A stretch of DNA of 64,000 nt from Thermodesulfobacteriota bacterium (GCA_040755415.1 JBFMAZ010000098.1:2160-66159), one strand, 5' to 3'. Positions 938 through 30,540 are shown, numbered from the stretch's first letter. Numbers and translations: made by a program. Notes: generated from the letters alone by a model not told the origin.

Positions 938-2308
938 TTACCGGGTTAATGCCTTATGGCTTATCCGGCTGAAAAATGGTTCCTTTTGCTCCCCAAAGTC
1001 AGGAGTTCGCTCCTTATCATGGCATTCCAGGCAGATGGAAGCAGGGACGGTACGTCTCAACTGAGACGTTTCAGGATGGAGGGTATGTTTCCGGCCCGGA
1101 CCGTGGCATACCTCGCACCCCACACCGGTCAGCCGGCCTGCAGTTTGACCCATCTGAAAGCCGGTAGGGTAACCAAAGCCCGTGGTATGACACGAAATAC
1201 AATCAGGATAAAAATGCCTCCGGACCTTTTTTAAGGTATCGAAAGCCCGGGAATGCCTGGTGCCTTGCCAGGCCCGGTATTCAGTTGCATGGCAATTTCG
1301 GCAGCCTTCTGCCCCCACGTAACCATTATCCCTGTCCTGCTCTAACGCCTGGTCAGAAAACTTCCGCTTTGCCTCGGCCTGCGCTGCCCGATCCTTGACC
1401 GCTGCACCATAAGCCTGCGAGATAAATTGCTCTGTGGCCGGATCAGGAGCGATATCCATGGAAAGGTAAATCCACTTAAAGTCATGCCTTAGAAGCCGTC
1501 CATTATGGTCCATCCACAAATCCAGTCTGGCCAGGTACTTCTGGCCGGGAGAGACCATGACGGCATGATTGACATTTTCCACAGGTATCTTGCCTCTGGC
1601 CGCCAGTATAACCTGGACGTCGCCAAATTCAGAGGCGAGGATCCGGTTCTCTACTTCTGAAAGATCGCTTAAGACTATGATCAGATTCGCCTCCCTTTTT
1701 ATAGCGGGCAGATATTTCTTGATACCGGCCAAAGGATCAGATACTTCACGCCCTTCAGCCTGAATTTGGGGCTGGCTGAGCGGTGGCGCGGTCAGGGCCA
1801 GGATTCCCACCTTGACCGTGCCCAGTTTCTTGATGAGATAGGGTCCTCCCAGAAGCTCCTTAGCCTCACCCCTATGGACGTTGGCCGAAAGGAAAGGAGT
1901 CTTTAGGGTCTTAATCTGATTCTGGATAAAGTCGGTCCCGAAGTTAAAGGCGTCGTCGCCCAGGGCGATGGCGTGATAGCCCATCTTCTCCAGGGTCTTT
2001 AGATAAATCTCAGTCCTTAACAGATCTGTCTGGCTTGTACCATGAAAAGCGCCGCTGCCCTCGATTAACAGGGCCTGAGGATTCTCCTTAAGAACGCCCT
2101 TGATTATTGTAACCCTTCTGGCCAGACCGCCAGCCCGGTTTTCCCCTCAGCCGCAGGGCTCCAATGCCCCCCGGGTCTGGCCAGTTAAAAGCAAGGTTAT
2201 CCTTGCCCCCTCTTCTGAGTCAGATAATGACCAAGAGGGGAGGAACATCACAATGGATAGAAACAGAAAGGCTGAAAAAGCGGCCACTTTTTTCAATATC
2301 TTACCCAT
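938..2308 (-). CDS. Exported UshA/5'-nucleotidase-like selenoprotein (CGU motif) fused to tetraheme cytochrome c554-like domain
   Basis: ATG at 2308 gives a signal peptide, then GALEPCG-TGA(2147-2149)-GENRAGGLARR, in frame with ORF 938..1984; C-terminal CRNCH, CISCH, CEVCH, CLECH. Confidence 0.85.
2122..2138 (-). promoter_or_regulatory. Putative bacterial SECIS hairpin
   Basis: CCGGGCT-GGC-GGTCTGG hairpin (G-U rich) at +9 after the in-frame TGA. Confidence 0.55.
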
Positions 2309-2442: not shown

Positions 2443-4235
2443 TTACTCTTCCTTCCACTCCTCGATGTTTGCCCCTAATTGTTGTAACGTCTCTTTAACC
2501 TTGGAATCCAGAGTCGTGCGGTCAAAGCCCTCTTTTGAACGAGCCTTAATTTCAACAACAATTTCCGGTTCAGAACCACTATCCTTTAAAGGACGGATAA
2601 CCCCGCTTATTATACTTGATATCTTATCCCACGGAATCCGTGCCCTTAGCCTAAGTTCAGAAATACTTTTCCCGGGCGCAACAGGCCTCGCTTCTTCTTT
2701 CCCAAGCAGTGTGGCTGTTTCTCCTACCTCACCCGCCTTTCCGCCACCTTCCCCCTCTGAATAAACAGCCCCAGCCTCAGCTTGTGCCTTAAGCTCCCGT
2801 GCCCTCTCAGGCCTCAAAACTTCAACATCAGAAGACAAGGAATAAACGGGTTCGTTAAAATATACTTTGCCGTCTATCTTCACGCCTAAAAGCCCGGCCT
2901 CCACACCACTCCTGACTGCGCTCAAGAGCACGTCCATGCTTTCAACAATAGGCATGCCCGGCGTTTTGAGAAAGACATCATAGATGGCGCGCATTTCCTT
3001 TACGTCCTCATCGCTCCTAAGGGTCCTGTCCAAGATATACTTCGGGGTAAGATGGGAGAGGACCCTTTCCTTATCCTTTAAAAAATCTCTTACACGGCCT
3101 GTTAAGGTCTGAGGGGCACCAACTGTAGGAATGCCAAGGTCATCATAAAATACGGCTTCTGAACCCATAAAACCCGTCAAGGCAATATGCCGGTAAGCGG
3201 TTAATATCTCAAATGGCAGGATTTTTTCGCTGTCTTTTAGTTTTGCCTCCAACTCCTTGACGCTTTCCTTCGTAAGCTGACTGGTTATGTTTTTATCATT
3301 TTCGATTTCTTTGAGTGCAAGATATCTTTTTAAAGCCTTTTCTAATTGTCTAAATTGAGACGCATCTAAGGCGACTATAAAAAATGGTAACACTTTAGCT
3401 GCTTGAAAAAAGCTGGTCGTCCAGAAAACGGCGCCTAAAAAATCCCCCTTAATCCCCCTTTTTCAAAGGGGGAAACGTCTCTCCTCCCTTTGGAAAAGGG
3501 AGGTTGGGAGGGATTTTAAAATACTTTTTCAAACAGCTAAATTGATACAAAAAATGCATTTTTGTATACCCTGAAACCGATGCCTGCTCTTGCAAAAAGC
3601 TCGTTAATAAATCCTGTCGTATCACCGGAAGGATATACAAAGTCAGGAGATAGAATCGCAAGTTTGATATTTTTGTTGTCCGGAACATCTGCAGAGTTAT
3701 TGGGCCAGAGATAGGGCTCGAATTCTTTGCCTGCCATCTTTTTCTGGATAAAATCTCTCAGGCAGCTTTCCATCTGGCTATCGGATACGCTTACCTCTCT
3801 GTCCACTATCACCCTGTTCAGGTTCGGCTGGTTCTTGAAGGAATAGAGATTGCCGGCGGAGTGGAAATACCAGAGTTCCTCCTCCAGCTTTTTTATCGCA
3901 TCGCCCACAATAGTATGAGGCATATCCTCATTAAAATGCTTGACGACATGATAAAGGGAAAGCAGTGAATGAGTCTTGCCGCCGCCAAAGGGGGTCTGTA
4001 TCTGGATAACCGGGTCTCCATCACCTTTCCCGGCTATCCTGGAAAGCACCCCTGAAAGCAGGGTCTCAATCCCTTTGGTTATATAGGTTTTTTGAAAAAA
4101 TAGCCTTGCGTCCCTGTATTCATCGGGGCCTCTGCCTACGGCTACGTCCCCGAGGTCTGCGGCAAATACAGCCTCGCTCAGCTTTCCTTTAAGGATATCT
4201 TTATGTGGTTCCGCGACCTGCCACCAGGGCTTCAT
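2443..4235 (-). pseudogene. DUF499-family AAA ATPase, internally deleted and interrupted by a MITE
   Basis: N-terminus MKPWWQVAEPHKDI..FAADL and Walker A TPFGGGKTH jump directly to a late region (LEEELWYF); removing MITE 3387-3548 plus one TSD restores VYKNAFFIVALDASQF. Confidence 0.8.
3387..3548. mobile_element. IS66-like MITE copy 1 (162 bp)
   Basis: Ends GTAACACTTTAGCTG...CAGCTAAATTGATAC; 8-bp TSD AAAAAATG. Confidence 0.9.
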
Positions 4236-4363
4236 CTGCTTATCCTTTCTCGAAATTGCTCTTTTTTTGAAAGAAAAATGCGCAACAAAAAATTGTTTAT
4301 ATGCAATGGCTTATAAAGTCAATAAAACCTCTTAAAGCGCATTAAGCGCAATTCAGCAGCCAT

Positions 4364-4849
4364 TTAACCCTCCGGGAAAAGCCTGTGGCTGGCTTTATAG
4401 TTTGCCCCTCTTCCCTTACCTTCCAACGTCAGATAGCCCTCTTCCATAATCCGCTTCAGTTCTCTATAAGCTTCATGCCTGCTCAGACCAAATTTTTCAC
4501 GATACTCAGCGTTTGATATGGTCTTTCGCCTACTCAAAATGTCTCTTAAAATGGGAAACCTCTCTGTGAAAAGTTCTATGTCGATTCTTTCAGGCAGAAC
4601 AACATAGTATTTGGCGCCTCTGCCACGCCCCTTATGAACTACGAAACCCTTCTCTACCATTTCATGAATTTCACGGTAGGCCGTATCACGATCTACTTTG
4701 TTTATCTCCTGATACTCTTTATTGGTAAATCCCGCCGCCTTTGTTGCTATCAAAATCCTCTTTTGTTTATCTGACAAGGGAAGCCTTTGAATAACATCCA
4801 CCCATTCAGAGGATCCCACATCAAATATTGGTGTATTCCAAAGGGTCAC
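4364..4849 (-). pseudogene. C-terminal tandem winged-HTH fragment of an ATP-binding/RecG-C-like regulator
   Basis: Two repeats of (T/S)NxEY...AYRE...GxGRGAxY; the N-terminal part is missing and it abuts the methyltransferase fragment. Confidence 0.6.
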
Positions 4850-5772
4850 TCTAAGGAGGCTATGCCTTCAGGTTTAAGTGTGCGCTCAATCTCCTTAAAA
4901 GCCTTAGCAAGCATGGCCTCAAAATCTTCTTTCCTTTTTACTTTTATATCATCAAACTCATAGGCTTTCCCCTTAGGCATGCCCCTGAGAAGACAAAGAC
5001 TATCAATAATTTCCTCTGTTTTGGGCGTTAATGGTGTTGCAAAGAGCTCGGGGTATAAGTCACCTATCGCCCTTTTCAGCCAAACATAGAAGAAATCTGA
5101 TAAGTCAGAGTAAGGCACATTATCATAATACGGAGGGTCTGTGATGACCGCATCAAAGTAGTCGTCGGGATAAGGAAGAGATATAGCAGAGGCTTGTTTG
5201 ACGGTTGCGGGAGGAGTATTAACTTGAATACAATGCCCTATCACTTTAGCGTAATATTCCCAGCCTGTCTCTAGACTGCCCGATGAACCACTAAAAGGGT
5301 TAACTTCAGCATAATCCCAAAGCATTGGCAGGGCTTGTCTTGAATAAAGTTGTTTTATAGCCTCAGAAGTGTTTTCCCACCTCGCAAGCATATTTGTAAA
5401 AGCAGCGGTCATATCCACTCCCTTTGCCAGATAACTCACCACCGCCCTCGCATACTCCTGTTCATACCCTTCCTCCAGCATCTTTTCATGCGCCTGCCGT
5501 ACCTTCTCAACAAAGGTAATCAAGGTCAGCTTCTGGCGGAAGTTGAAAAGATCGCCCCACTTTGTCATCCCATATAGCACCACGGGAGTAAAATTATACA
5601 ATACTCCACCGGGTGCATATTCCTTCCCATCGGGGGTAGATATTATTTCATCAGGCACAGGGTCGGTTCCCCATTTGTCAAATAGTTCTTTTCTCTTTTT
5701 CTCCAGATGCTTTTCTGCGTCTTTGAAAAATTCCAAATCCTTTTTTTCTGCAAGGCGGTAACTCTTGCCCAA
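4846..5772 (-). pseudogene. Internal fragment of DUF1156-family adenine DNA methyltransferase
   Basis: TDPPYYDNVPYSDLSDFFYVWLKR, WDYAEVNPFSG, GKSYRL; both termini missing. Confidence 0.8.
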
Positions 5773-6549
5773 AGTATGGCTGGGTTTACAAGACGCATAT
5801 TCCATTGGTTATCTTGATAAACAGAAAAAAGACGCCTTCCGGCAACAGTTCCGTTACCGTCCTTAATCTCGGCAATCAGAAAACATAAAAGACCATCCAT
5901 TCTCCCTTCGGGATCGAGGAATGCGGCGCCGTTTTCTACATCATCCGTAAGCCTCTTAAATATGGTCTCAATTACCGCTTCCATTAAGGGGTGCCCCATG
6001 CTTACAAACTCTGCCTGGCCTTTGAAGGCCTTTTCTTTATCAAAAGAGACCTTGGAATACTCACGGAGGACTTCCCCGAATTTAGTCTTAAACCAGTGAG
6101 GCTGGCTCCGGATTTCTAAGGGTACTGAAGGAATGCGCCAAAAACCATCCTGCCTTTCTTCTACTTTAAGGTTAAGTTCCTTGGCCGCCTTCTTAAAAAA
6201 TTCCTCTACATATTCCGGGACAAGCCTGTTTTCCTTGGGGGTCTACCTGAGAGACGTTGACGGCGTATAACGGGTCAAACTGAAAGGCATTTCGGATACG
6301 CTGGGCCTCGGTAAAGAGAAAAAATCTATTGGCGTCACCTGTGAATTTTACCGATTGCTCTGTAATTACTGTAATCTTTCCTAAGTCTTCCCTAGTAAGG
6401 ATTGGATTGTAATACGTAGGGGGATTTGAGGTAAGTCCTACCGCCTCTATTTTTACCTGGTCGGCGCCAACGGCCTTGACGGAGATTACCCTGACCTTTT
6501 CTTTCCAGAATGGACCTTCAAGTATGAAACCGGGCTTAATTTCCATCAT
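5770..6549 (-). pseudogene. SNF2-type helicase remnant (N- and C-terminal pieces, motor core deleted)
   Basis: N-terminus GPFWKEKVRV..FDPLYAVNVSQVDP joined near 6237, out of frame, to C-terminal-type ENRLVPEYVEEFF..GHPLMEAV. Confidence 0.65.
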
Positions 6550-6956: not shown

Positions 6957-8270
6957 GTGAAGAAAAAGAAGATCATTTATGTGGTACTAACCTTACTGCT
7001 CTCTCTTTCTATCATCCCGACATCGGCCTTAGCCCGCTTGGGAACTAAAGCCAGGGATTTCGTTGAGGTTATTGACAGGGTAAAAGCATCTGTTGTCCAA
7101 GTCCGTGTCGAAAAAACCTTTGTCCACCCCAAAAAGCCTGGGGCTCCGGAGGGGGAGATACCGGTAAAGGTTACCGGCGCCGGCCTGGTCATTCAGGAAG
7201 AGGGCTATATTCTCACCTGTGAACACCTCCTGGAAGAAGCTAAAAAAATAGAAGTAGTTGATGTAGCCGGGAAGAGCTACAAGACCGGAATCGTAGGACG
7301 AGATGCCCTGACAGACATAGCCGTCCTCAAGGTTACCGTAGACTCCAGGAAAATGACGCCAGCAGTATTAGGTAACTCTAATCAGGTAAAACCCGGGGAG
7401 TGGGTTATAGCCCTGGGTTATCCAGAAGACCTCCAGGAAACTGTAACCGTTGGTGTAGTAAGCGGCAGAAGTGAAGATCCAAAGGGGGTTGAATACATTC
7501 AAACTGATGCCCTCATAAGGCCAGGAAATAGCGGTGGCCCGCTCTTAACTGAAGAGGGAAGGGTTATCGGCATAACCTCTTCTACCGCCGGAGGGTTCGG
7601 CCGGTCCATACCTATAAACCTGGCTATCTCGATCGCCAACCAGCTCATCAAGCACGGCGAAGTATTGCGCGGGTATCTTGGAGTAATAGGCCAGGATATA
7701 ACTGAAGAACTGGCCGCAGCATTTGGGGTTAAGACTACATCTGGCGTCCTCATCGGCGATATAGAACATTACAGTCCGGCGGAAAAATATAATCTCCTGG
7801 TGGGGGACGTAATCTTGAAATTTGACGGCCAGGACGTAAAAAATACAAAGGAACTGACTAGACTGGAGGCTGAAACAACACCAAACAAGATGGTTGATAT
7901 AGAAATAATAAGGGATAGGGAAAGGAAAACTGTCCCCGTAAGGTTTGGCCAGGCCATGACTGAGACCAGCCAAAGAGACGAAATCGATAAGCAGTTCGGC
8001 CTTAGCGTTGAAGACATCTCAGAAGATTGGAAGAAAAAAATCAAGACGGAAAGGGCCGATGGTGTGGTGGTATCCCGCGTCCGGGCCGCCTCAGCCGCCT
8101 CTGCCGCTGATCTTATGTGGGGAGATATTATCGTGGAGGCAGATGGGGAAAAGGTCAGAAACCGGCGCGACTTCTATCAAATCATAGAGGGTCTCGCTAA
8201 GAAGGAAAACATATTAATGCTCATCGAACGGGCAGGAAAAACATCTTATGTTGTTCTAAGGGTCGATTAA
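6957..8270 (+). CDS. DegP/HtrA-family serine protease with two PDZ domains
   Basis: Signal peptide, TCEH, DIAVLK, GNSGGPL, PDZ repeats. Confidence 0.93.
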   Translation: MKKKKIIYVVLTLLLSLSIIPTSALARLGTKARDFVEVIDRVKASVVQVRVEKTFVHPKKPGAPEGEIPVKVTGAGLVIQEEGYILTCEHLLEEAKKIEVVDVAGKSYKTGIVGRDALTDIAVLKVTVDSRKMTPAVLGNSNQVKPGEWVIALGYPEDLQETVTVGVVSGRSEDPKGVEYIQTDALIRPGNSGGPLLTEEGRVIGITSSTAGGFGRSIPINLAISIANQLIKHGEVLRGYLGVIGQDITEELAAAFGVKTTSGVLIGDIEHYSPAEKYNLLVGDVILKFDGQDVKNTKELTRLEAETTPNKMVDIEIIRDRERKTVPVRFGQAMTETSQRDEIDKQFGLSVEDISEDWKKKIKTERADGVVVSRVRAASAASAADLMWGDIIVEADGEKVRNRRDFYQIIEGLAKKENILMLIERAGKTSYVVLRVD

Positions 8271-8310
8271 ACCCGCCGCTTGTACTCCATTACCGGGCAG
8301 ACATTGCACC

Positions 8311-8844
8311 TCAAACAAAGGTCAGGGCATATCTTAAAATCTCTGATGGCAGAGACTCTCTGTTTCTTTGTGTCATCTCCAAAAGCCTTATATCATCTCT
8401 TTTCTTTATCTCTGCGATAAGTCCGCCACCTTTAAGAGCAATGGTGGCAATAACCAGTTTCTCAGAATCGAGTATCTCCTTTACGAGCCTTTTGAATTTA
8501 TCAGATAGACACTCCATTTTTCCGATCTCATCAATGATGACAAGACCTGTTTTAGGGTCTAAAAATGCAATAGAGTCGAGAAAATCTTCAAAGCCCTTAA
8601 CATCAACTCCATATTTACTTACCCGGTAATGGCTTTTTATCTCTGTATGGGAAAGAATTCCCCTTCTCCCATCAAGGGTTATCAGTTCAAACCCTTTTCT
8701 AATCCCTCCCTCTCTTATCTCCTGTGTGTAAAAACCAGCCGGATGGAAATCCCTTAACTCTGCAAAGATTTTCCCGATAAGTGTTGTCTTGCCAATACCC
8801 GGGACTCCTGTTACCAGGATATTCTTTTTTGCCAAGTTCATCAT
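8311..8844 (-). CDS. THEP1-family nucleoside triphosphatase
   Basis: TGVPGIGKTT, GFYTQEIREGG, IIDEIGKME. Confidence 0.9.
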   Translation of the reverse strand: MMNLAKKNILVTGVPGIGKTTLIGKIFAELRDFHPAGFYTQEIREGGIRKGFELITLDGRRGILSHTEIKSHYRVSKYGVDVKGFEDFLDSIAFLDPKTGLVIIDEIGKMECLSDKFKRLVKEILDSEKLVIATIALKGGGLIAEIKKRDDIRLLEMTQRNRESLPSEILRYALTFV

Positions 8845-8847
8845 ACC

Positions 8848-9099
8848 TCATTCTTTCTGCACGTCGTGGTTTTCGCCGGTAAGGATATAAATATCACAAT
8901 TAACTCCGTCAAGTTCCGCCTTCGCCCTCCCGAAGGTGTCGGCCGTCAATATGTGTATCTTCAAGAATCCGGCTATTTGGTTCAATTGCCCGCGTACGCC
9001 GGACAAAAGCCGCCCATCCACAGAAAGGGTACCGGTAAAATCCGAGACCAGGTGTTCAAGTCTCACCCATCCAAAACCAGGTATCTCTAACTCCAACAT
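8848..9099 (-). pseudogene. Truncated soluble P-type ATPase-like HAD hydrolase
   Basis: DFTGTLSVDG, ILTADTFG; stops after QKE and lacks the GxGxND motif. Confidence 0.7.
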
Positions 9100-9332
9100 T
9101 GGAAGCTCCCTTCTTTATCTATAGGCAACGTCACCATAACGTCTGGCAACCATTTGGACTCTTTCTCCTATAGTGAGTAGTCATCACCCTGTCAAGCACA
9201 AAAAGAAGAGCAGTCAGCATTCAGCTCTCAGCTTTCAGCGTAAGACGTCACTATTCCCTTGAAAACCATCCATAAAAAATAGTAATAAAGCATGAACAAC
9301 TTGCGGGTAATGTCAAAAGTCTTATGAAAGAC

Positions 9333-9542
9333 AACCACAGAGATGGAAAATTCGAAATCCGAAGCACGAAACTCGAAACAAATTCAAATGACCAAATGAG
9401 AACAATGACCAAAACGAAAAATCGGAGGCGTTGCTGATGGACGTTTCTAACATTCGATATTTGAATTTCGGATTTGTTTCGGATTTCGAATTTCGATATT
9501 CGGATTTGGTTGCGGCTATGCCGGTCTGTGTCCTCTGTGGTT
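9333..9542. repeat. Palindromic heptamer-type repeat (CGAAATC/GATTTCG) inside an AACCACAGAG..CTCTGTGGTT wrapper
   Basis: Inverted arms; core closely similar to 21011-21440; wrapper recurs at 61949-62228. Confidence 0.85.
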
Positions 9543-9582
9543 AATCTTTTCACAATAAAACTTGCGCAAAAAGGACACTCTC

Positions 9583-11184
9583 ATGAAAGTAACCTGCCTG
9601 GGTGCGGCACGCACTGTTACCGGTTCATCATTCCTCCTGGAGAGCAATAGTACCCACATCCTCATGGATTGCGGCATGTTCCAGGGTAGCCAGGAGATAC
9701 AGAAGAGGAACCGCGCATTTCATTATTCTCCGGGAGATATCGATTACCTCCTACTTACCCATGCGCACATCGACCATAGCGGTCTGATACCAAAACTCGT
9801 GAAAGAAGGGTTCAAAGGCCAGATCATCACTACCAGGGCCACGAATGAACTTTGCGGCATCATGTTGCGGGACAGCGCCCATATTCAGGAGACGGAAGCA
9901 GAGTGGGAACACAAGCGCAACAAAAGAAGAGGGAAAAAAGGGTTGCCCCCGGCCCCCCTCTACACCGTAAGAGATGCCGAAGCCAGTATGCACTTATTCA
10001 AGCCGGTAGATTACGGGAAACTCATCCAGCTTACCCCGCAACTTAACGCCCGCTTCCTGGACGCCGGACATATCCTGGGCTCGGCCTTCATCGAAATCTG
10101 GGATCACAGCGTGTCGCCACCTATGAAAGTGGTCTTCTCCGGTGATATAGGCCAGAAAGAACAGATGCTTGTCTCCGACCCGACCCCTATCCAGGAAGCA
10201 GACTTTCTCTTCATGGAATCCACCTACGGCGACCGTCTACACAAGAGCAAGGAAAAGACCCATCGTGAACTCTTGTATGCCATCCAGGACGCCGTAAAAA
10301 ACCATGAGAAGGTCATTATCCCGGCCTTTGCCGTGGAACGCACCCAGGAACTGATTTACATCCTGAGCCGTTTTTATCACGAAGGGCTGCTGCCCGAAAT
10401 ACCCATCTATATAGACAGCCCCCTGGCCATCTCCGCTACCGAGGTCTTCCGCAATAATATGGAGTTCCTGAATGACCAAACCCATGTCCTTCTGGGAAGA
10501 GGAGATCACCCCCTGGTATTGCCCACCCTCTCTTTTGCGCGCACGACCGAAGAATCCCGGAGTATAAATCAGAGTGAGGGACCGGCCATTATCATCGCCG
10601 CCAGCGGCATGTGTGACGCCGGCCGGATCAAACACCACCTGCGAAACAACCTGTGGCGCCCTGGCGCCCACATCGTATTCGTGGGCTATCAGGCCCAGGG
10701 AACACCCGGCAGACAGCTCATCGACGGGGCGCAAAAAATCAAACTCTTCGGAGAAGAAATCGCCGTAAAGGCCAAGATTCACACTCTGGGCGGTTTTTCA
10801 GCCCATGCGGATCAAAGGGAACTCCTGGAATGGCTTGGGAACTTCACCAATCCCCGCCTGAAGGTCTTTGTCGTCCACGGCGAAGAGGAGGTCAGCCTGG
10901 AATTTGTAAAGGCCATTGAACGCACCTTCTGGCTGGAGGCCAGGGCCCCGGAATGGCTGGAGACCATAGATCTTTCGCCTATAACCGCACGACCTGAACC
11001 CGCTAAGACTGAGGCGTTACAGGTAATGCCTGATCTGAATCGTATCGAGATGGAGATACGGAGATTAAAAAATAAACTTTACAGTAAAGGCGAAGGCCGC
11101 CTGGAAGAGGAGGAGGCAATCAGGGCCAGGCTTAAAGGATTAAATGAAGAGCTTCAGGAACTTATCAAGATGACCACAAATTAA
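9583..11184 (+). CDS. MBL-fold beta-CASP ribonuclease (YSH1-like)
   Basis: THAHIDHSG, AGHILGS, FSGDIG, ESTYG, FSAHAD. Confidence 0.92.
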   Translation: MKVTCLGAARTVTGSSFLLESNSTHILMDCGMFQGSQEIQKRNRAFHYSPGDIDYLLLTHAHIDHSGLIPKLVKEGFKGQIITTRATNELCGIMLRDSAHIQETEAEWEHKRNKRRGKKGLPPAPLYTVRDAEASMHLFKPVDYGKLIQLTPQLNARFLDAGHILGSAFIEIWDHSVSPPMKVVFSGDIGQKEQMLVSDPTPIQEADFLFMESTYGDRLHKSKEKTHRELLYAIQDAVKNHEKVIIPAFAVERTQELIYILSRFYHEGLLPEIPIYIDSPLAISATEVFRNNMEFLNDQTHVLLGRGDHPLVLPTLSFARTTEESRSINQSEGPAIIIAASGMCDAGRIKHHLRNNLWRPGAHIVFVGYQAQGTPGRQLIDGAQKIKLFGEEIAVKAKIHTLGGFSAHADQRELLEWLGNFTNPRLKVFVVHGEEEVSLEFVKAIERTFWLEARAPEWLETIDLSPITARPEPAKTEALQVMPDLNRIEMEIRRLKNKLYSKGEGRLEEEEAIRARLKGLNEELQELIKMTTN

Positions 11185-11346
11185 TTGATTCTCATCCGGG
11201 AATCTCTATATTCCCTCCCCCTTTGACGGGGGAGGGCTAGGGTGGGGGTGAAAAAGATTGTGTAATTTCAGACTGTTCACCCTCCCCCTGACCCCCTCCC
11301 ATCGAGGGAGGGGGGAGTTTTTGGGGGCTTTTCGGATGAGCACTAA
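11183..11346. mobile_element. MITE-like element (CTCATCCG termini) with CCCTCCCCC hairpins
   Basis: Imperfect TIRs ttctcatccgggaa/ttttcggatgagcact; near-identical copy at 36276-36438. Confidence 0.75.
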
Positions 11347-14273
11347 CCCAGGGCGTCCTGTATTACCCGCATTATCTTTTCATAATCAAAGGGCTTGGAT
11401 ACGAGGAAGTCCACGCCGTCATCCTTTAAGGTCTCGGAATCAAGCTGCGCTCCCCAGCCGGTGATCATTATTGTTGGTATATCAGGCCGCAGGTCCTTTA
11501 TCTTCCTGGTCAAAACCCGACCGGACATGCCGGGCATACCCAAATCGGTCATAAGCAGATCAAACCGGCCTCTCTGAAAAAGCTCTATCCCTGATTCGCC
11601 ATTTGTGGCCGTAACCACCCGGTGGCCGACACGGCCCAGGAGCTTATCTAGCACTGTCAAAACCTCTTCATCGTCATCCACGATCAGGATATCTGCCTGT
11701 TTCATAGAAAAATCGGTAGAGAGATCGGCCTTCTTTTCTCCTTTTAACTTAGCGATAGGGAAATGAAGAATAAATTCTGTCCCCCGGCCTTCTTCGCTTT
11801 CTACTTCTATCTCCCCGCCATGCCTGGTTATGGTACCATAAGAAACGCTTAAACCCAGGCCCATGCCTTTCTTCCCCTTGGTGGTGAAAAATGGGTCAAA
11901 TATCTTCTCCTTAACCTCCGCGGACAGGCCGCAGCCGGTGTCAGCAAGGCGAATCTCTACGCGCTCATTATGTATGCCGGTTCGAATGGTTATCTTCCCG
12001 CCTGTGGCCATAGCATCCACTGCATTGAAAATGAGATTGGTGAAGACGTCCTTAAGCGCCGAGGGGTTGCCCATTACAGGCCCTATCTCACCTAACTCTG
12101 TCTCCAGATCGATATTTATGCCTTCCACCAACGGCTTTTCTTTCCAGTGGGGACGGGTAAGCTGGACCACGTCCTGGATAAGCTCATTAATATTGATAGG
12201 GACAAAGTCTTCGTCCTTGCGAATACGTGTAAATTCCTGCAACCGTTTAATTGTATCCGAGGCCGCCCTGGCCCCCTTTTCTATGGCCCTGAGCCTCTCC
12301 CGCAGAACGGGTTCGTCGATTTGTAATAACAAGATCTGGGCGTTGCCTAAAATAGACATGATGACGTTATTGAAATCATGGGCTATGCCCGAAGCCATCT
12401 GTCCCAGGGCCTTAAATTTCTCTGATACCACTAGCTGATCCTGTGTGGACTTAAGTTCTTCAAAGGCCCGGTGCAGCTCCTCGTACAACCTGGTATTCTC
12501 AAGGGAGATGGCCAGGGGTGAGGCCAGACCATCCAAAAATGCCTTGTCATCCGCTGTAAAATCCTCTTCTCCTTCTTTATTGAAGATACAGAGCATCCCC
12601 ATAACCTTACTCTTACAGACAAGCGGTACCGCAATAAGAGAATTAATCTTCTTGCCGGTAACATCCATGTCCAGCTCAGACAGCCCCTTGGGATAAATAA
12701 CTGTTTTCCCGTCCTTAAAAGCTGCCTGAAAGACTGTGGCGGCCATAAATTTTTCTTTTAATTCCTCTACCTTTTCATCCAGCGTTGAAGTCCTGGCCAG
12801 GATATTTGTCTGGCCTTCCGGGCCGACTGAAACAATAAAGCCGGCCTGTGCCTTTATGAAACGGCAAATGCGGTCTAAGATAACACCCAGGACATCCTGG
12901 AAATCAAGTATAGATCCCAAATTAAGAGAAAAATCATAAAGAGTTCTGTAACGCTCCTCTGACTTTTCCAGCTCGCGCGTCCTCTCTTCTACACGGTTTT
13001 CAAGGCTCTGATGATATTCCTCCGCCTGCTTTTTAAACTCACCGAGGCTGCGGGCCATCTGATTAAAATTTTCCGCCAACTCCCCGATCTCGTCTCGCGA
13101 CGGGACACTGACCCGCTCTCCAAATCGCCCTTCCGCAATCGCTTTAGAGGCCTTAGTTATGGTCAGAATGGGCTGGGCAATACTCCGGCCTACCCTAATG
13201 GTGGTAAGCACAATACCTCCACCAACCAGGAGCATAATGCCCGCAAACCAATACCTGAGTGTACGGATCCGGCCAAAGATCTCTTTTTCATTGGCTTCGA
13301 TAAATAATCTCCACCCGAGCCCTTTAAAATCCTCAAACCCTGCCGAACTGGCATAGGCTGCGGTTTTAGCCAGGCCGCCTCTGGAATAGCGGAAAAGTCC
13401 ATAAGTGTCAGCCAAACCCTTGCCCGAATCAATGCTGATGCCATCGCGTTTCAGGCTTTTGCCTACCAGTTTTATTTCGGCATCGCCAATTACTATGTCG
13501 CCGTCAGCCTTTGTCAGAAAAACGCAATTGGAACCCATTCCTGATTGTAAAAAGTTACTATGCACATTTTCCATCACCCGTTGAAATGGCTGCCATGAAA
13601 GGCGGGCCAGCAAGAAACCAATGATCCTGGGTTGTCCGGCCTTTGGTATGGGTCTGGAAAGGAGCTTGCGGGTCAGGCCAGCCAGGCTATAGGACTGAGA
13701 TGTAGAAATAACCGGGACAGCTATATTTAATCCATATCCACCGTCCCTATAAATAGCATCTCCAATAGGCGAGGCATCCCAATCTTCTACCACCAGACCC
13801 TGCATGGGCGCCTTTTTAAACCAGGCTTCTTCTCTAAAATTATGCCCCTGTATTATGGAAAGCGTCCGGGAGGGGATAGGGCGACCAAGCCTGTCTATGG
13901 TATTTGTGGCCAGAAGGCGGCCCTGCCTGTCCAGAACGACTAAGAAATCATAAAACCGGTGATCCAAGGTCTGCTGGTCCAGAAAACGGATTAATTCTTC
14001 CCTTTTATTGTTCTCAAGTGCAAACTTGATGGTAGGCGATGGCGCTAGTGTCCTGACGTCCACCATGCGCTCAAAGATTATGTGATCGATGCTCTGGATG
14101 GTATTGCGTGCCGTTGCCTGCAACTGTTCGCCGATCTCTTTTTGCAGGGCGCTCCGGGTGCTAAAGTAGGCCATCGCTCCAACAATAATAAGGGGAATAA
14201 TGGAAAGGAGCAGAAACCAGAAAAGTAGTTTCCGGCGAAGGGGAGAATACGGTAACGTCTTGATGCCCATCAA
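11343..14273 (-). CDS. Hybrid sensor histidine kinase (Cache-like, HAMP, GAF, HisKA, HATPase, REC)
   Basis: Two TM segments, HAMP (DEIGELAENFN), GIAHDFNN, PFFTTK, GLGL, C-terminal receiver domain. Confidence 0.92.
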   Translation of the reverse strand: MMGIKTLPYSPLRRKLLFWFLLLSIIPLIIVGAMAYFSTRSALQKEIGEQLQATARNTIQSIDHIIFERMVDVRTLAPSPTIKFALENNKREELIRFLDQQTLDHRFYDFLVVLDRQGRLLATNTIDRLGRPIPSRTLSIIQGHNFREEAWFKKAPMQGLVVEDWDASPIGDAIYRDGGYGLNIAVPVISTSQSYSLAGLTRKLLSRPIPKAGQPRIIGFLLARLSWQPFQRVMENVHSNFLQSGMGSNCVFLTKADGDIVIGDAEIKLVGKSLKRDGISIDSGKGLADTYGLFRYSRGGLAKTAAYASSAGFEDFKGLGWRLFIEANEKEIFGRIRTLRYWFAGIMLLVGGGIVLTTIRVGRSIAQPILTITKASKAIAEGRFGERVSVPSRDEIGELAENFNQMARSLGEFKKQAEEYHQSLENRVEERTRELEKSEERYRTLYDFSLNLGSILDFQDVLGVILDRICRFIKAQAGFIVSVGPEGQTNILARTSTLDEKVEELKEKFMAATVFQAAFKDGKTVIYPKGLSELDMDVTGKKINSLIAVPLVCKSKVMGMLCIFNKEGEEDFTADDKAFLDGLASPLAISLENTRLYEELHRAFEELKSTQDQLVVSEKFKALGQMASGIAHDFNNVIMSILGNAQILLLQIDEPVLRERLRAIEKGARAASDTIKRLQEFTRIRKDEDFVPININELIQDVVQLTRPHWKEKPLVEGINIDLETELGEIGPVMGNPSALKDVFTNLIFNAVDAMATGGKITIRTGIHNERVEIRLADTGCGLSAEVKEKIFDPFFTTKGKKGMGLGLSVSYGTITRHGGEIEVESEEGRGTEFILHFPIAKLKGEKKADLSTDFSMKQADILIVDDDEEVLTVLDKLLGRVGHRVVTATNGESGIELFQRGRFDLLMTDLGMPGMSGRVLTRKIKDLRPDIPTIMITGWGAQLDSETLKDDGVDFLVSKPFDYEKIMRVIQDALG

Positions 14274-14795: not shown

Positions 14796-14843
14796 GATAA
14801 CCTAATTTAAGATATTAATTTGCGGAAGGCAAGAGGACACGAT

Positions 14844-16721
14844 ATGCCGCTTACAGCTACCGACAGGAATCGGGACGCAATCCTCATCTGCAAGGTCATC
14901 TTCGACGTCCTGGATGTGGGAAACGTCCTCGAAGCATTAAAGGCCCGGCCTGATTTCAAGATATTAGAAAAAAAGGAGGGGCGGGGAACCAGCATCCTGT
15001 GGCTAGACAACCCGGTTCGCCCCGACGTCATGCCTTCGGCAGATCGGCCGGGGCGGAAATCTACCTGGGACATGACCAGCCAGCAACCAGGGTCAGACAG
15101 AACACATCTCATAAGCGATGATGGTCAACCATTATTAGGAATTATAACCCTGAACCCCGAGAGACTTATTCTGGAGTGTGTAACCAAAACACAGGCCGCT
15201 ATAGGCCAGGAGATGCTATTAAAAGTTGCCGGGACAAATCTACGCTACCGGATCACCACCTATGAAACACCCATCCGCCCTAATCCTCCCTCACCCCCTG
15301 ACCACCTATCCCCCCATCTGCCGCCTGAATTCTTTAAAAGCTACTTTGAGGTCCGCTGGGTCCATGAAAAAATTCCGGCCTTAAGCGGCCTGACGCCCCT
15401 CCAGTGCGCCCGCAGCAAACGCAAAAAGGAGCGGGACAGATTAGCTGCTCTCCTGGCCACCCTTAAAAAGTCATCGATAGGTCTCTATGATTTCAATCGT
15501 CTTATAGATATCCTGGGGTTCAAAGGACACCCTCTGCTCCGGGAAGAGCATATTACAAGGCAGAGGCTAAAAGAAAAAATAATAACCGTGATCGACAACA
15601 ACCTGCGTTTTACCATGGCTGTTAAGAAAGTGGGGTGGGATACCTCAACCACCCTGACTCAAAGGCTGGCTGAAGTAAATATTATGCTACAAGGCCTTGT
15701 TTACTTCCTGGAGCAGGGTAAGCGGACAAAAACAGAGCTAACCGCTTTAACCAGGACACTGGGACAGATAGAAGAAATGGCGCAAATTCTACAGACAGAG
15801 ACCTTATCCGGCAACCTGCACAGGAAAACAGTTGAAGAGTTAATCGGTGACCCTAATTGGGATCACCGCCAGGTCATTACCACAGAGGTGGTTGATACCG
15901 TCACCCGGGAAATTGAGAAAGTCTGGCGTGAAAAGATTGAACAAAAACCTATTAGCCCGCATACCTCGTTTACCACCGCGCTGAATAATATACCGGCCCT
16001 GTGGGTGGCCGCCATCCAGGAAAATCTTGATCTCCCCCGGGAAACCACAAAAAGAAAGAATGTTAAAATTATTGTGGAGAATCTCTCCCATCCTAAGATA
16101 TTAAATAAGATTGTAGATAAATTGACTAGGCTGTCCATACCCGCGGTAAAGGCGTTAAAAACGATTTATATCCACGGCGGTATTTATCCTTATGACAAAC
16201 TAATCCACCTCGTTAGCAGTGAAACACCCATCTGCCTGCAGCGGACAAAGGGCGAAGAAGATAATCTACCAAATCCCCCCCACCCCCCCTTTCCTAAAGG
16301 GGGGTATCCGTTAAGTCCCCCTTCAGAGAAATGGAGACATCCGTTACCCTCCCTTTTGGGAAAAGACGGGGTCCCAGTAATTCCCCCTTTGAAAAAGGGC
16401 CCCCCCTACATTCCCCCTTTGGAAAAGGGCCCCCCCTACATTCCCCCTTTGGAAAAGGGCCCCCCCTACATTCCCCCTTTGGAAAAGGGCCCCCCCTACA
16501 TTCCCCCTTTGGAAAAGGGGGATACAGGGGGATTTTTAGGTGAAGAAACAGACGGATACTTCTGGGATAAAAGAAAACCGTCCTCCCCCCTGGGTCTCTT
16601 GCGGTCGCACGGCCTCCTCTTCGTTGGCCAGTCTAAAAAAGAGGGCACCTATTATAAAATTGCCGTCATCCCCGCGGAGATCAGGCAAAACCTCTCTTTT
16701 TTGGAGGGGATACTTCTATGA
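14844..16721 (+). CDS. Hypothetical protein with an MbcA/ParS-C-like motif and an in-frame repeat insertion
   Basis: Long ORF with SD gagga; WVHEKIPALSGLTP motif; PPYIPPLEKG tandem repeats. Confidence 0.7.
   Translation: MPLTATDRNRDAILICKVIFDVLDVGNVLEALKARPDFKILEKKEGRGTSILWLDNPVRPDVMPSADRPGRKSTWDMTSQQPGSDRTHLISDDGQPLLGIITLNPERLILECVTKTQAAIGQEMLLKVAGTNLRYRITTYETPIRPNPPSPPDHLSPHLPPEFFKSYFEVRWVHEKIPALSGLTPLQCARSKRKKERDRLAALLATLKKSSIGLYDFNRLIDILGFKGHPLLREEHITRQRLKEKIITVIDNNLRFTMAVKKVGWDTSTTLTQRLAEVNIMLQGLVYFLEQGKRTKTELTALTRTLGQIEEMAQILQTETLSGNLHRKTVEELIGDPNWDHRQVITTEVVDTVTREIEKVWREKIEQKPISPHTSFTTALNNIPALWVAAIQENLDLPRETTKRKNVKIIVENLSHPKILNKIVDKLTRLSIPAVKALKTIYIHGGIYPYDKLIHLVSSETPICLQRTKGEEDNLPNPPHPPFPKGGYPLSPPSEKWRHPLPSLLGKDGVPVIPPLKKGPPYIPPLEKGPPYIPPLEKGPPYIPPLEKGPPYIPPLEKGDTGGFLGEETDGYFWDKRKPSSPLGLLRSHGLLFVGQSKKEGTYYKIAVIPAEIRQNLSFLEGILL
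16270..16536. repeat. CCCCTTT..AAAGGGG hairpin array with 30-bp tandem repeats inside the CDS
   Basis: Unit CCCCCCTACATTCCCCCTTTGGAAAAGGG(C) repeated about 4.5 times, no spacers. Confidence 0.9.
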
Positions 16722-19689: not shown

Positions 19690-19828
19690 GAGCTTATCCG
19701 TAAATAACTCCCCCCTTTCGTAAAGGGGGGGCAAGGGGGGATTTAAAGTGTCAACCGTGGTCAAATCCCCCTAAATCCCCCTTTGCAAAGAGGGATTTTA
19801 CAAACAACTCTTATTTACGGACAAGTTC
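19690..19828. mobile_element. MITE with GAG termini (IS5/IS1031-like) nested in an AATGACT heptamer palindrome (19656-19877)
   Basis: TIR gagcttatccgtaaataa/ttatttacggacaagttc; apparent 3-bp TAA TSD; CCCCTTT hairpin cargo. Confidence 0.7.
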
Positions 19829-21010: not shown

Positions 21011-21440
21011 AATCGCAGATGGAAAATTCGAAATCCGAAGTACGAAACTCGAAACAAACTCAAATGACCAAATAAGAGCAATGACCAAAACAAAAAATCG
21101 AAGGAGTTGCTGATGGACGTTTCGAACATTCGATATTTGGATTTCGGATTTGTTTCGGATTTCGTATCAGTTTAGCTGTTTGAAAAAGTATTTTAAAATC
21201 CCTCCCAACCTCCCTTTTCCAAAGGGAGGAGAAACATTTCCCCCTTTGAAAAAGGGGATCCCCCTACATTCCCCCTTTGAAAAAGGGGATCCCCCTACAT
21301 TCCCCCTTTGAAAAAGGGGGATTAAGGGGGATTTTCGAGGCGCCGTTTTCTGGACGACTAGCTCTTTTCAAACAGCTAAAGTGTTACCGGATTTCGTATT
21401 TCGATATTCGGATTTGTTTGCGGCTTTGCCGCGCTGCGGT
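21011..21440. repeat. Heptamer palindrome repeat (as 9333-9542) interrupted by a MITE
   Basis: Shared core aaaatcg.agg.gttgctgatggacgtttc; excising the MITE restores the palindrome. Confidence 0.85.
21164..21387. mobile_element. IS66-like MITE copy 2 (expanded by internal ~31-bp tandem duplication)
   Basis: GTATCAGTTTAGCTG...CAGCTAAAGTGTTAC; TSD CGGATTTC. Confidence 0.9.
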
Positions 21441-23156: not shown

Positions 23157-23594
23157 TCAGTACCACCCTGGATGTCTGTGTCCGCTATGACAGGTGGTGC
23201 AGAGATTTTTAGGAATGGTCAAAGTCCGCTGATGTTCCTCTTTCGTTGGGGCCTTAAGATGCAAACTGGCCGGGCCATGGCAGGATTCACACTGTTTGTT
23301 TGCCATATCCGGTGTTTTTTCCACACTGCGAAAACCGCCCGGCTGTCCAAAACCTGTAGTGTGGCAGCGAAGACAATTCGGATCATGTTCCTTCTTCCTC
23401 ATCTGGATAATTCGAAAATTTTTAGAGTACTTCCACGTTAAGTATGTCTCCACTTCTTTCGGGTGGCACTCTTTACACTTCGCCATCCCCACATAGGTAG
23501 CCTTCTCCTTTGCCGCCCACGCTGTTTGTAAACCAAACAATAAATCCACACCGTAAGTAAAAAATAAGGCGATTATTACAATAAATATCTTCAT
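23157..23594 (-). CDS. Tetraheme cytochrome c554-like protein
   Basis: Signal peptide; CKECH, CLRCH, CESCH, CTTCH. Confidence 0.88.
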   Translation of the reverse strand: MKIFIVIIALFFTYGVDLLFGLQTAWAAKEKATYVGMAKCKECHPKEVETYLTWKYSKNFRIIQMRKKEHDPNCLRCHTTGFGQPGGFRSVEKTPDMANKQCESCHGPASLHLKAPTKEEHQRTLTIPKNLCTTCHSGHRHPGWY

Positions 23595-23904: not shown

Positions 23905-24954
23905 ATGGATAAGACGGGTATTAAAAATGGGCCACAGGCCTTAACAAGCCGCAGGGATTGTCTCAAGATCATAGGGATGCTCGGCCTGGGCATGGCCGTC
24001 CCAAGTGTTTGGCCGACATCATCCGAGGCCAAACTTTCTAACGGTCTTAATCAGGTCAGTAGAACCCTTCCCCTTATGGGCACTTTTGTCAATATAACTG
24101 TCCTGCATTCATCTCAGGACAGGGCCATCGAGGCCGTGGAAAAGGGCTTTTCCCGGATGGAGGAACTGGTCAAGGTGTTTGACCGCTACGCTAACAACAC
24201 CCCGGTATCCTGGTTAAACCACAAAGGCCAGCTCAAAGACGTCTGCCCTGAACTAGCACTGGTTATGAGCAAGGCTGCCTACTTTCATTTCCTGAGCCAG
24301 GGTTCTTTTGACATAACAGTCCAGCCCCTTGTTAACCTTTATAAAGAAGCATTCGCCAGGACCGGCCATGCGCCGTCACCAGAAAAAGTTAAAGAAAAAT
24401 TAGCCCTGGTTGATGCCGATAAGATACAGTTTAATAAGCAAGGCATCCGTTTCTTAAAAGAAGGCATGGGCATAACCCTGGATGGCATTGCCAAGGGCTA
24501 TATCGTTGACGAAGCCGCTAACGCCTTGAAAAAAATGGGTGTGCAGTATGCCCTGATCAATGCCGGTGGAGATATCCGGGCTATCGGCGGAAACGGCCCG
24601 GATAAGTCCTGGAAGATCGGCATTACCGACCCCCGGAAACAAAAGCCATACCTTCAGACTATAGCATTAAACAACGGCGCTGTTGCTACATCCGGTAACT
24701 ATGAGGTTTACTTTGACCGGGAAAAGCTTTACTACCATATTATTGATACGCATACTGGCCGGTCTCCCAGGGATATGGCCAGTGTAAGCATTACCGCGCC
24801 CACAGTCATGGAGGCCGATGCGCTTTCCACTACTGTCTTTGTTGAAGGTATAGAAAAAGGCATGCGACTTGTGGAAGCACTGCCGAACGTGGAGGCGCTG
24901 GTAATAACCGGCGGGAATAAGAAATTCGCTTCTAAGGGCTGGAAGACGGCCTAA
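23905..24954 (+). CDS. apbE: FAD:protein FMN transferase, Tat-exported
   Basis: SRRDCLK Tat motif, MGT, DGIAKGY, NAGGDI, ATSGNYE, HIID. Confidence 0.93.
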   Translation: MDKTGIKNGPQALTSRRDCLKIIGMLGLGMAVPSVWPTSSEAKLSNGLNQVSRTLPLMGTFVNITVLHSSQDRAIEAVEKGFSRMEELVKVFDRYANNTPVSWLNHKGQLKDVCPELALVMSKAAYFHFLSQGSFDITVQPLVNLYKEAFARTGHAPSPEKVKEKLALVDADKIQFNKQGIRFLKEGMGITLDGIAKGYIVDEAANALKKMGVQYALINAGGDIRAIGGNGPDKSWKIGITDPRKQKPYLQTIALNNGAVATSGNYEVYFDREKLYYHIIDTHTGRSPRDMASVSITAPTVMEADALSTTVFVEGIEKGMRLVEALPNVEALVITGGNKKFASKGWKTA

Positions 24955-29294: not shown

Positions 29295-29318
29295 AGAAAT
29301 CTCACCTGCCTTACAGAT

Positions 29319-30523: not shown

Positions 30524-30540
30524 TTACAACCTCCTTAATT

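What the first reader, a model, noticed from the sequence alone, without database searches (positions are those of the whole stretch)
938..2308. Hidden N-terminus: exported CGU selenoprotein fused to a tetraheme cytochrome
Seen: the ORF track starts at 1984, but the frame continues through one TGA (codon 54) to an ATG with a signal peptide: MGKILKKVAAF..TGQTRGALEPCG-U-GENRAGGLARR. A hairpin follows the TGA and four CxxCH motifs lie at the C-terminus. Several usual metallophosphoesterase ligands look replaced (IEGSG, LGDDAF rather than GNHE). Established: UshA-like proteins with CxU/CxC motifs are a known selenoprotein family in anaerobes. Inference: a periplasmic redox enzyme wiring a Cys/Sec pair to hemes rather than a nucleotidase.
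Basis: partly seen in the sequence, partly recalled or inferred. Interest (0 to 1): 0.72.

Follow-up and report, generated by a model that had tools for sequence, protein, structure and literature searches.

The report
Known UshA-like four-haem selenoprotein gene
A gene that looks cut short by a stop codon very likely makes an exported selenium-containing protein in which a nucleotidase-shaped domain lacking its usual metal ligands is joined to four haem-binding motifs; it likely works as a sulfur-redox enzyme and belongs to a catalogued family for which I found no tested function.

Summary
Observation confirmed, on the minus strand. The frame 2308→938 gives 456 aa with one TGA at codon 54 (P-C-G-U), a hydrophobic N-terminus and four CxxCH motifs. 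Selenocysteine readthrough is well supported: the host has SelA, SelB, SelD and tRNA-Sec; 6 of 6 same-genus genomes keep the TGA; a hairpin fitting the bacterial SECIS model follows; and homologues have Cys there (79 of 81). All seven 5'-nucleotidase metal ligands and the catalytic His are replaced. The C-terminal domain is cytochrome c554-like, with only three conserved distal histidines, so haem 2 is probably open. It is not new: NCBIfam NF041198 (UshA_like_PCGU) spans both domains (273.5 bits, cut-off 275), the CxU family was tabulated in 2008, and this scan met it before on other DNA. I found no paper testing its function. Best reading (~0.55): an exported redox enzyme coupling Cys52/Sec54 to the haem chain. 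Contact between Sec and a haem is not shown: covariation places the haem-2 segment against the old active-site face, but the Sec-loop pair did not replicate. Also, 19 of 80 Sec homologues carry no haem domain. The family splits into metal-retaining (87 of 446) and metal-less (325 of 446) forms; this gene is metal-less.

The parts
938..2308 (-). Full CDS, 456 aa with TGA read as Sec at codon 54; UshA-like (seleno)protein with tetrahaem domain
   Evidence: (NF041198 273.5 bits, cut-off 275)
2222..2308 (-). Predicted signal peptide, about residues 1-29 (cleavage site not determined)
   Evidence: hydropathy; low pLDDT N-terminal helix; same-genus orthologues also begin with a hydrophobic stretch
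2147..2155 (-). Cys52-Gly53-Sec54 motif; TGA at 2149-2147
   Evidence: TGA in 6 of 6 same-genus genomes; Cys at both positions in 78 and 79 of 81 homologues
2111..2140 (-). SECIS-like hairpin; upper stem-loop 2133-2118, apical loop GGUCUG 2128-2123, 18 nt after UGA
   Evidence: same spacing and GGUCU loop as the host formate dehydrogenase gene; Sec-versus-Cys comparison; model constraints
1391..2212 (-). 5'-nucleotidase N-terminal (calcineurin-like metallophosphoesterase) fold, residues 33-306. Ligand positions read Q44, R46, G86, D118, D215, R238, K240; the catalytic His position reads D119
   Evidence: VIA-align Z 31.8, rmsd 2.5, 270 aligned to 2z1a; motif mapping
941..1348 (-). Cytochrome c554-like tetrahaem domain, residues 321-456
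   Evidence: PF13435 E 6e-16; 1bvb E 4e-13; Z 11.2, rmsd 2.7, 130 aligned
1289..1303 (-). CxxCH haem motif 1 (C336-H340)
1187..1201 (-). CxxCH haem motif 2 (C370-H374); predicted to lack a distal His, as haem 2 of c554/OcwA
   Evidence: only three conserved distal His in 460 homologues; alignment to 1bvb; OcwA preprint passages
1103..1117 (-). CxxCH haem motif 3 (C398-H402)
1019..1033 (-). CxxCH haem motif 4 (C426-H430)
956..1255 (-). Span holding the three conserved putative distal ligands H352 (1255-1253), H408 (1087-1085) and H451 (958-956)
   Evidence: 460/460, 457/460 and 406/460 (54 gaps) in four-haem homologues

Best explanation
The gene encodes a 456-residue protein whose TGA codon 54 is very likely read as selenocysteine and which likely works outside the cytoplasm as a redox enzyme, using its Cys52/Sec54 pair on a sulfur-containing substrate with its four haems as the electron path. 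Shown by sequence and tools: the frame, the host Sec machinery, the SECIS-like hairpin, Cys/Sec interchange, loss of the 5'-nucleotidase metal ligands and catalytic His, the c554-like fold, and only three conserved distal histidines. Inferred steps: (1) export and attachment of four c-type haems; (2) haems 1, 3 and 4 are bis-His relays and haem 2 has an open face, as in c554/OcwA; (3) the haem domain sits where the substrate-binding domain of a 5'-nucleotidase would sit, over the emptied cleft, with the haem-2 segment facing it; (4) Cys52/Sec54 cycles between thiol/selenolate and selenenylsulfide or persulfide, and the haems recycle it using electrons exchanged with periplasmic multihaem partners; (5) the substrate is most likely a disulfide, persulfide or polysulfide. 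Steps 3-5 are untested.
For: Readthrough: tRNA-Sec, SelA, SelB, SelD over cut-off; TGA in 6 of 6 same-genus genomes; 10 synonymous-only versus 4 non-synonymous variable columns in the 21 codons before it; only 2 of 11 codons vary just after it; GGT at the loop codon in 32 of 75 Sec versus 7 of 53 Cys genes; core pairing in 51 of 75 versus 21 of 53. Not a hydrolase: (catalytic His in 8 of 446 family members). Cys52 and Sec/Cys54 are the most conserved non-glycine residues of the domain. Open haem. Fixed domain packing: pTM 0.87; 7 of the top 20 inter-domain couplings end on residues 364-371 next to haem motif 2, and A299-Y367 and R98-Y367 replicate in independent sequences. Fusion partners point to thiol and sulfur chemistry: DsbA/GILT-like domains, a rhodanese and extra c-type haems in homologues, and the same haem module fused to a redoxin with a CPHC motif in other proteins. 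Three genomes from three families place the gene beside 9-haem cytochromes, two of them also beside a 16-haem one. The host has dsrA and aprA and two haem-c assembly genes. Precedent: MccSep, a Sec multihaem polysulfide reductase (PMC13510729).
Against: No Sec-to-haem distance could be measured. The Sec-loop coupling G55-P436 ranked third among inter-domain pairs in the full set but 3350 of 32886 in the independent subset, and A59-F378 fell to 6859. In 19 of 80 Sec loci the protein stops after the nucleotidase-like domain with no CxxCH downstream, so the motif can work without a fused haem chain. No neighbour of redox function recurs across phyla. In this genus the gene sits alone, convergent with an MFS transporter and a SAM hydrolase-like gene. 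The DsbA-like fusion domains I looked at carry one Cys (CP), not CxxC. The 2008 survey lists this family as an exception among the major selenoproteins in lacking a recognised Cys-based redox motif (PMC2398784).
Confidence: 0.55

Rival explanations
1. The two domains are only loosely coupled. The CxU domain has an autonomous job, such as binding or sensing a soft metal, metalloid or persulfide in the emptied cleft, or forming a regulatory selenenylsulfide, while the haem domain is an optional redox tag or an independent electron carrier.
For: Haem-less Sec forms in 19 of 80 loci and a close haem-less Cys form, P0442. Stand-alone c554-like tetrahaems exist in the same genome. The Sec-loop coupling does not replicate.
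Against: The fused form dominates: 51 of 80 Sec loci, and 138 of the 150 best representatives have exactly four CxxCH (that search used the fused query and is biased toward it). The model has pTM 0.87, and interface couplings partly replicate.
Confidence: 0.2
2. The family uses a single metal in the old second metal site, with Cys/Sec as ligand or nucleophile (a remodelled metalloenzyme, perhaps related to SoxB-type sulfur chemistry). This protein would be a derived version that binds a metal through D118/D119/D215 and the Cys/Sec pair.
For: 87 of 446 family members keep a complete D / E-or-D / H / H set at positions 86/118/215/238, and the distribution is bimodal. These positions co-vary with each other. 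The SoxB fold matches as well as the 5'-nucleotidases do (Z 30.9).
Against: This protein and all six same-genus orthologues read G86, D or G118, D215, R238, with no His ligand. 325 of 446 members have at most one of the four, so the metal cannot be essential to the shared function.
Confidence: 0.13
3. It remains a periplasmic nucleotidase or phosphoesterase with unusual ligands, with Sec playing a protective or regulatory part.
For: The fold and best structural matches are 5'-nucleotidases, with weak hits to UshA, CpdB and NadN models.
Against: All seven metal ligands and the catalytic His are replaced. The 5'-nucleotidase C-terminal substrate-binding domain is absent, with the haem domain in its place. 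Scores are far below those families' cut-offs (for example 49.5 versus 600 bits).
Confidence: 0.07
4. The TGA is a true stop (pseudogene or sequencing error), and only the 348-residue downstream ORF, or nothing, is made.
For: The hairpin is not significant by shuffling alone. A paralogue on contig C25 is frameshifted, so broken copies exist in this genome.
Against: The same TGA sits at the same codon in 6 of 6 same-genus genomes and in at least 120 loci from many phyla. Cys replaces it elsewhere. The upstream codons show purifying selection. The Sec machinery is complete. The truncated ORF would lack a signal peptide and the first core strands.
Confidence: 0.03

Closest known systems
UshA-like (seleno)protein, NCBIfam NF041198 (UshA_like_PCGU); the 'COG0737, UshA-like, CxU' family tabulated in PMC2398784, PMC9312934 and PMC13188914
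   Same: PCG-U motif, degenerate 5'-nucleotidase domain and C-terminal haem domain. The model matches residues from the N-terminal domain (profile 3-264) and the haem domain (profile 354-516), 273.5 bits in total.
   Different: It scores 1.5 bits below the curated cut-off (scored with C for U). It is shorter than the 519-position model and lacks about 90 positions between the domains. It belongs to the metal-less sub-group.
5'-nucleotidase UshA / CD73 / SoxB N-terminal metallophosphoesterase domain (2z1a, 1ush, 2wdc)
   Same: Same fold over about 270 residues, Z 30.9-31.8, rmsd 2.4-2.6. The GG-x-A-R helix motif is kept.
   Different: The dimetal ligands and catalytic His are all replaced. A CxU loop is inserted after motif I. 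The C-terminal substrate-binding domain is replaced by a tetrahaem domain.
Cytochrome c554 (1bvb/1ft5) and the haem 1-4 module of OcwA (6i5b)
   Same: Four CxxCH motifs, fold match Z 11.2, rmsd 2.7, 130 residues, and three distal His. In both named proteins haem 2 is the active site, and in OcwA it is five-coordinate (bioRxiv 10.1101/641308, passages).
   Different: About 70 residues shorter than c554 and fused to a Sec domain. It lacks the His-His distal pair described for OcwA. No activity is known.
MccSep/ExtKL (NF040886), Sec pentahaem polysulfide reductase of Geobacter (PMC13510729)
   Same: Periplasmic multihaem c selenoprotein in Desulfobacterota. Its haem 2 is not bis-His: it has a Cys ligand, with Sec in a G-U loop nearby.
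   Different: A different family: five haems, Sec on an Ig-like domain, and no NF040886 hit for this protein or found in this genome. It is a functional analogy only.
UshA-like (seleno)protein family 2, NF049981 (CxxU)
   Same: Related N-terminal domain (48.7 bits). A CPGU paralogue occurs in this genome (contig C8).
   Different: Its motif is CxxU rather than CxU, and this protein scores far below its cut-off of 140 bits.

Membership tests
NF041198 UshA_like_PCGU | P-C-G-U/C motif after the first strand | tested here: met
   EPCG-TGA
NF041198 UshA_like_PCGU | Match across both parts of the model (nucleotidase-like and haem domains) | tested here: met
   profile 3-264 and 354-516 of 519
NF041198 UshA_like_PCGU | Score at or above the curated cut-off of 275 bits | tested here: inconclusive
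   273.5 bits, E 3e-81, scored with C for U; the next family scores 56.6 bits; 64 of 301 sampled phylum genomes exceed the cut-off
Bacterial selenoprotein | Host has SelA, SelB, SelD and tRNA-Sec | tested here: met
Bacterial selenoprotein | bSECIS: 3-9 nt loop, 4-16 bp stem, G in the first two loop positions, 16-37 nt from UGA, MFE at or below -7.5 | tested here: met
   6-nt loop GGUCUG, 5-bp stem, 18 nt, -14.6 kcal/mol (criteria)
Bacterial selenoprotein | UGA aligns with Cys in homologues | tested here: met
   79 of 81; 132 of 134
Bacterial selenoprotein | Selenium detected in the protein | not testable with these tools
   needs mass spectrometry or 75Se labelling
5'-nucleotidase (UshA/CD73) | Dimetal ligands D-x-H, GD, GN, H, H-x-H/Q | tested here: not met
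   Q44, R46, G86, D118, D215, R238, K240 against six true 5'-nucleotidases and 2z1a
5'-nucleotidase (UshA/CD73) | Catalytic His of GNHE | tested here: not met
   D119; His in 8 of 446 family members
5'-nucleotidase (UshA/CD73) | C-terminal substrate-binding domain (PF02872) | tested here: not met
   no such hit; PF13435 in its place
Cytochrome c554-type tetrahaem module | Four CxxCH motifs, c554 fold | tested here: met
Cytochrome c554-type tetrahaem module | Haem 2 without a distal His | tested here: inconclusive
   only three conserved distal His for four haems; which haem lacks one is assigned by homology, not from coordinates; the ligand pairing of c554 is partly recalled
MccSep/ExtKL (NF040886) | Family model match, five haems | tested here: not met
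   four CxxCH
MccSep/ExtKL (NF040886) | Cys-ligated haem 2 with Sec beside it; polysulfide reductase activity | not testable with these tools
   no coordinates or assay; covariation only suggestive

The most novel reading that the evidence does not exclude
The invariant Cys52 is the missing sixth ligand of haem 2, or sits over it, with Sec54 beside it. A hydrolase scaffold would then have been converted into a Cys/Sec-haem sulfur-redox active site, convergent with the polysulfide reductase MccSep. Because the family spans many phyla and occurs in a large share of Desulfobacterota genomes, this would reveal a second, more widespread class of periplasmic sulfur oxidoreductases, with a metal-retaining sub-class as the likely evolutionary intermediate.
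Probability: 0.2. Interest if true: 0.75.

Novelty: new member of a known kind. Interest (0 to 1): 0.3.

Why it matters
As a gene it is an ordinary member of a catalogued selenoprotein family that gene callers routinely truncate: the close relatives in public records are 345-386 aa fragments without the Sec motif. The family matters because it is large (755 clusters at 50% identity with E at or below 1e-30; 64 of 301 sampled phylum genomes over the cut-off), and none of my searches found a tested function. The useful additions here are three testable points: a probable open haem 2 with covariation placing its neighbourhood over the emptied cleft, a bimodal split into metal-retaining and metal-less forms, and natural haem-less forms that serve as controls.

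Tried and rejected
Whether the two domains dock, and how far Sec lies from a haem, is left open: no controlled complex prediction was obtained, and the structure tool returns no coordinates (one search listed /data). Neighbourhood as a guide to function: 34 representatives of the 45 recurring clusters were annotated (I left out the gene itself and clusters I judged to be antisense shadow frames); they were housekeeping or lineage-specific, or had no Pfam hit. The hairpin's folding energy alone is not significant. The promoter and terminator scan was at chance level. No RNA holder was listed, which is no evidence either way. A second Sec in the haem-less forms was considered; none reads on into haem motifs. 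MccSep membership was rejected. Literature: searches found only tabulations of the family and no functional study; subscription-only papers are not covered, and no supplements were read.

Full report
Observation. The feature is on the minus strand. Window 2308→938 translates to 456 residues with one internal TGA at codon 54, in the context EPCG-TGA-GENRAGGLARR; the plus strand is not coding here. The mechanical ORF begins at 1984, and public records hold this protein and its close relatives as 345-386 aa fragments without the motif. Four CxxCH motifs start at residues 336, 370, 398 and 426. The N-terminus has a basic start and a hydrophobic core, and there is no other strongly hydrophobic segment. 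Export is inferred, as no signal-peptide predictor was on hand.

Is the TGA selenocysteine? The host genome (98.8% complete) encodes tRNA-Sec and SelA, SelB and SelD above their cut-offs; SelD itself has an in-frame TGA. All 6 of 6 same-genus genomes carry an orthologue with the TGA at the same codon; one has a later frameshift in the haem part. Across these seven sequences the 21 codons before the TGA have 10 synonymous-only and 4 non-synonymous variable columns, so they are coding. The 11 codons after it have only 2 variable columns, against 30 of the next 74. Among 99 aligned protein homologues, 78 of 81 with a residue there have Cys at position 52 and 79 of 81 have Cys at 54.

The hairpin has a 5-bp upper stem and a GGUCUG loop 18 nt after UGA, which meets the four bSECIS constraints quoted in PMC13188914 (passages). 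The host's formate dehydrogenase gene has the same spacing and GGUCU loop. On its own the hairpin is weak: z is -0.75 to -1.75, and 2.9% of all TGA triplets pass a loose test. The comparative control is better. Of the 120 Sec-type and 120 Cys-type loci fetched, 75 and 53 unique ones passed my length and profile filter. The loop codon is GGT in 32 of 75 versus 7 of 53, the 3-bp core pairs in 51 of 75 versus 21 of 53, and the mean energy is -9.7 versus -7.4 at the same GC content. These loci are not independent. I put readthrough at about 0.95.

What family? NCBIfam NF041198, 'UshA-like (seleno)protein' (UshA_like_PCGU), scores 273.5 bits against a cut-off of 275; the next model scores 56.6. The model matches both domains, so the fusion is part of the catalogued family. 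'COG0737, UshA-like, CxU' is tabulated in PMC2398784 (2008), PMC9312934 and PMC13188914; I saw table rows and passages of each. The family is large: 755 representatives at E at or below 1e-30, 64 of 301 sampled phylum genomes over the cut-off, and Sec forms in Acidobacteriota, Krumholzibacteriota, Myxococcales, Armatimonadetes, Marinimicrobia and others. This scan reported the family earlier on other DNA. Six paper searches found no functional study.

Anatomy. The model is confident (pLDDT 91, pTM 0.87). Residues 33-306 have the 5'-nucleotidase N-terminal fold (Z 31.8, rmsd 2.5, 270 aligned to 2z1a; SoxB Z 30.9), and residues 321-456 match cytochrome c554 (Z 11.2, rmsd 2.7, 130 aligned) (Foldseek agrees on the first). 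Against 2z1a and six true 5'-nucleotidases, the motifs NDxH, DxGD, GNHE, (S/T)H and GGH(S/T)(H/Q) read GQTR, EGSG, GDDA, SD and AARGK. All seven metal ligands and the catalytic His are replaced (their roles are established knowledge of UshA, recalled).

Across 446 family members the catalytic His occurs in 8. The second metal site is bimodal: 87 of 446 keep D86, E/D118, H215 and H238 together, while 325 of 446 keep at most one, and these positions co-vary. This protein and its genus are in the metal-less group. In 460 four-haem members only three distal histidines are conserved: H352 (460), H408 (457) and H451 (406, with 54 gaps). The best further candidate, position 434, is His in 204 and Arg here. 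By alignment to c554, the haem left without a His is haem 2; the ligand pairing of c554 is partly recalled. Haem 2 is called the active site of c554 and OcwA, and is five-coordinate in OcwA (bioRxiv 10.1101/641308, passages). PMC9250108 places c554 closest to the sulfite reductase MccA (passages).

Are the domains wired? I could not measure a distance. Covariation on 464 sequences (effective number about 300) recovered plausible within-domain pairs. Seven of the top 20 inter-domain pairs end on residues 364-371, just before haem motif 2, with partners in helix 93-109, the linker helix and the old metal positions 86, 117 and 257; this grouping was noticed after the fact. A299-Y367 and R98-Y367 held up in the 189 sequences not used before (ranks 35 and 223 of 32886). 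The Sec-loop pairs G55-P436 and A59-F378, prominent in the first run, did not (ranks 3350 and 6859). So the haem-2 segment probably faces the emptied cleft, but contact with the Sec loop is unproven. Against obligate wiring, of 80 Sec loci with long flanks, 51 are fused four-haem proteins, 6 are frameshifted with haem motifs downstream, 4 are cut by the contig end, and 19 stop with no CxxCH downstream (two of these have under 350 nt beyond the stop).

Context. In the genus the gene stands alone, convergent with an MFS transporter, a SAM hydrolase-like gene and a small zinc-ribbon gene. In this genome the upstream neighbour, the promoter region and the signal peptide differ from the four congeners aligned. 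No neighbour recurs across phyla beyond housekeeping synteny. Of the 20 regions fetched (part of that output was cut), three from three other families have the gene beside a 9-haem cytochrome, two of them also beside a 16-haem one. Homologues are fused to DsbA/GILT-like domains with a single Cys, Ig-like domains, a rhodanese or an extra c-type haem, and the same haem module is fused to a CPHC redoxin in other proteins. The host has dsrA, aprA, two haem-c assembly genes and 21 frames with three or more CxxCH, but no MccSep match was found.

Mechanism. Most likely (0.55) it is an exported redox enzyme in which Cys52/Sec54 attacks or releases a disulfide, persulfide or polysulfide in the emptied cleft and is recycled through haem 2 and the three bis-His haems. 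The precedent is MccSep, an unrelated Sec pentahaem polysulfide reductase whose haem 2 is Cys-ligated with Sec beside it (PMC13510729: abstract, first part of Results and the active-site section read). Rivals are loosely coupled domains (0.2), a remodelled mononuclear metalloenzyme (0.13), a residual nucleotidase (0.07) and a true stop codon (0.03).

Verdict. This is a real, mis-called selenoprotein gene and a new member of a known, apparently untested family. Interest 0.3; the bold case, a second Cys/Sec-haem sulfur enzyme class, has probability about 0.2.

Noticed in passing
G000:C25:11191-12710 (L008, L177): A second PCG-TGA paralogue (about 53-60% identical) with the same SECIS loop. Its haem part is broken by two frameshifts at or near homopolymer runs, while the orthologue in G002 is intact. 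It lies beside type II secretion/type IV pilus genes (GspE/GspF-like), with a possible secreted-protein gene nearby in G002. Pseudogene or assembly error.
   Followed up: partly
G000:C8:79-732 (L006): A third paralogue with a CPG-TGA (CxxU, family-2-like) motif and an 8-bp SECIS stem; it ends after about 210 residues, shorter than its relatives, so it is probably truncated.
   Followed up: partly
window 3454, 16285-16521, 19711-19795, 21210-21320, 25085-25165, 37341, 38962-39010, 42689, 43687-43735, 50244-50328, 56872-56920, 58620, 63944: An abundant short palindromic repeat (C5-T3-N3-A3-G5): 49 strand-matches against 0.05 expected. It is often in frame inside genes, giving PPLEKGG-type peptides, for example in the ORF at 14820-16721 and three times inside the C25 paralogue.
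   Followed up: partly
window 23157-23594 (-): A stand-alone exported c554-like tetrahaem cytochrome (PF13435), divergent from an ApbE-family flavin transferase at 23905-24954; a second such cytochrome lies on contig C37. These are candidate redox partners.
   Followed up: partly
window 2443-6549 (-): Fragmented genes upstream of the finding (ATPase-like, methyltransferase-like, HTH and helicase-start-like pieces) that resemble a decayed restriction/defence island (the resemblance is recalled; the family hits are weak). They replace the kinase-like AAA_33 gene found there in five congeners.
   Followed up: partly
L171:591-2462 and 8155-10374; L175:3241-5238; L176:4840-6762 and 9702-11936; L049:2414-5773: Recurring uncharacterised 9-haem (about 630 aa) and 16-haem NrfH-like (about 740 aa) cytochromes beside family members in three families. 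L176 also has a tandem haem-less plus four-haem pair of the selenoprotein, and L049 has 7- and 26-haem neighbours.
   Followed up: partly
P0336-P0385 group (for example P0342, 698 aa): Proteins annotated as peroxiredoxin that fuse redoxin domains (CPHC motif) to two c554-type tetrahaem modules; a separate thiol-haem architecture, seen in records named Myxococcota and Proteobacteria.
   Followed up: partly
G000:C22 (118939, 145415, 148627), C80 (41212, 44797), C62 (27535), all minus strand: Other in-frame TGA selenoprotein candidates with GGU-loop hairpins; the motifs resemble formate dehydrogenase, MvhD, HdrA and an AhpF-type protein (names recalled, not from a family scan).
   Followed up: no
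window 28488-33375 (-) and G000:C98:36079: An Rnf-type electron-transport operon preceded by a small four-haem cytochrome (names recalled from the sequences, not scanned).
   Followed up: no
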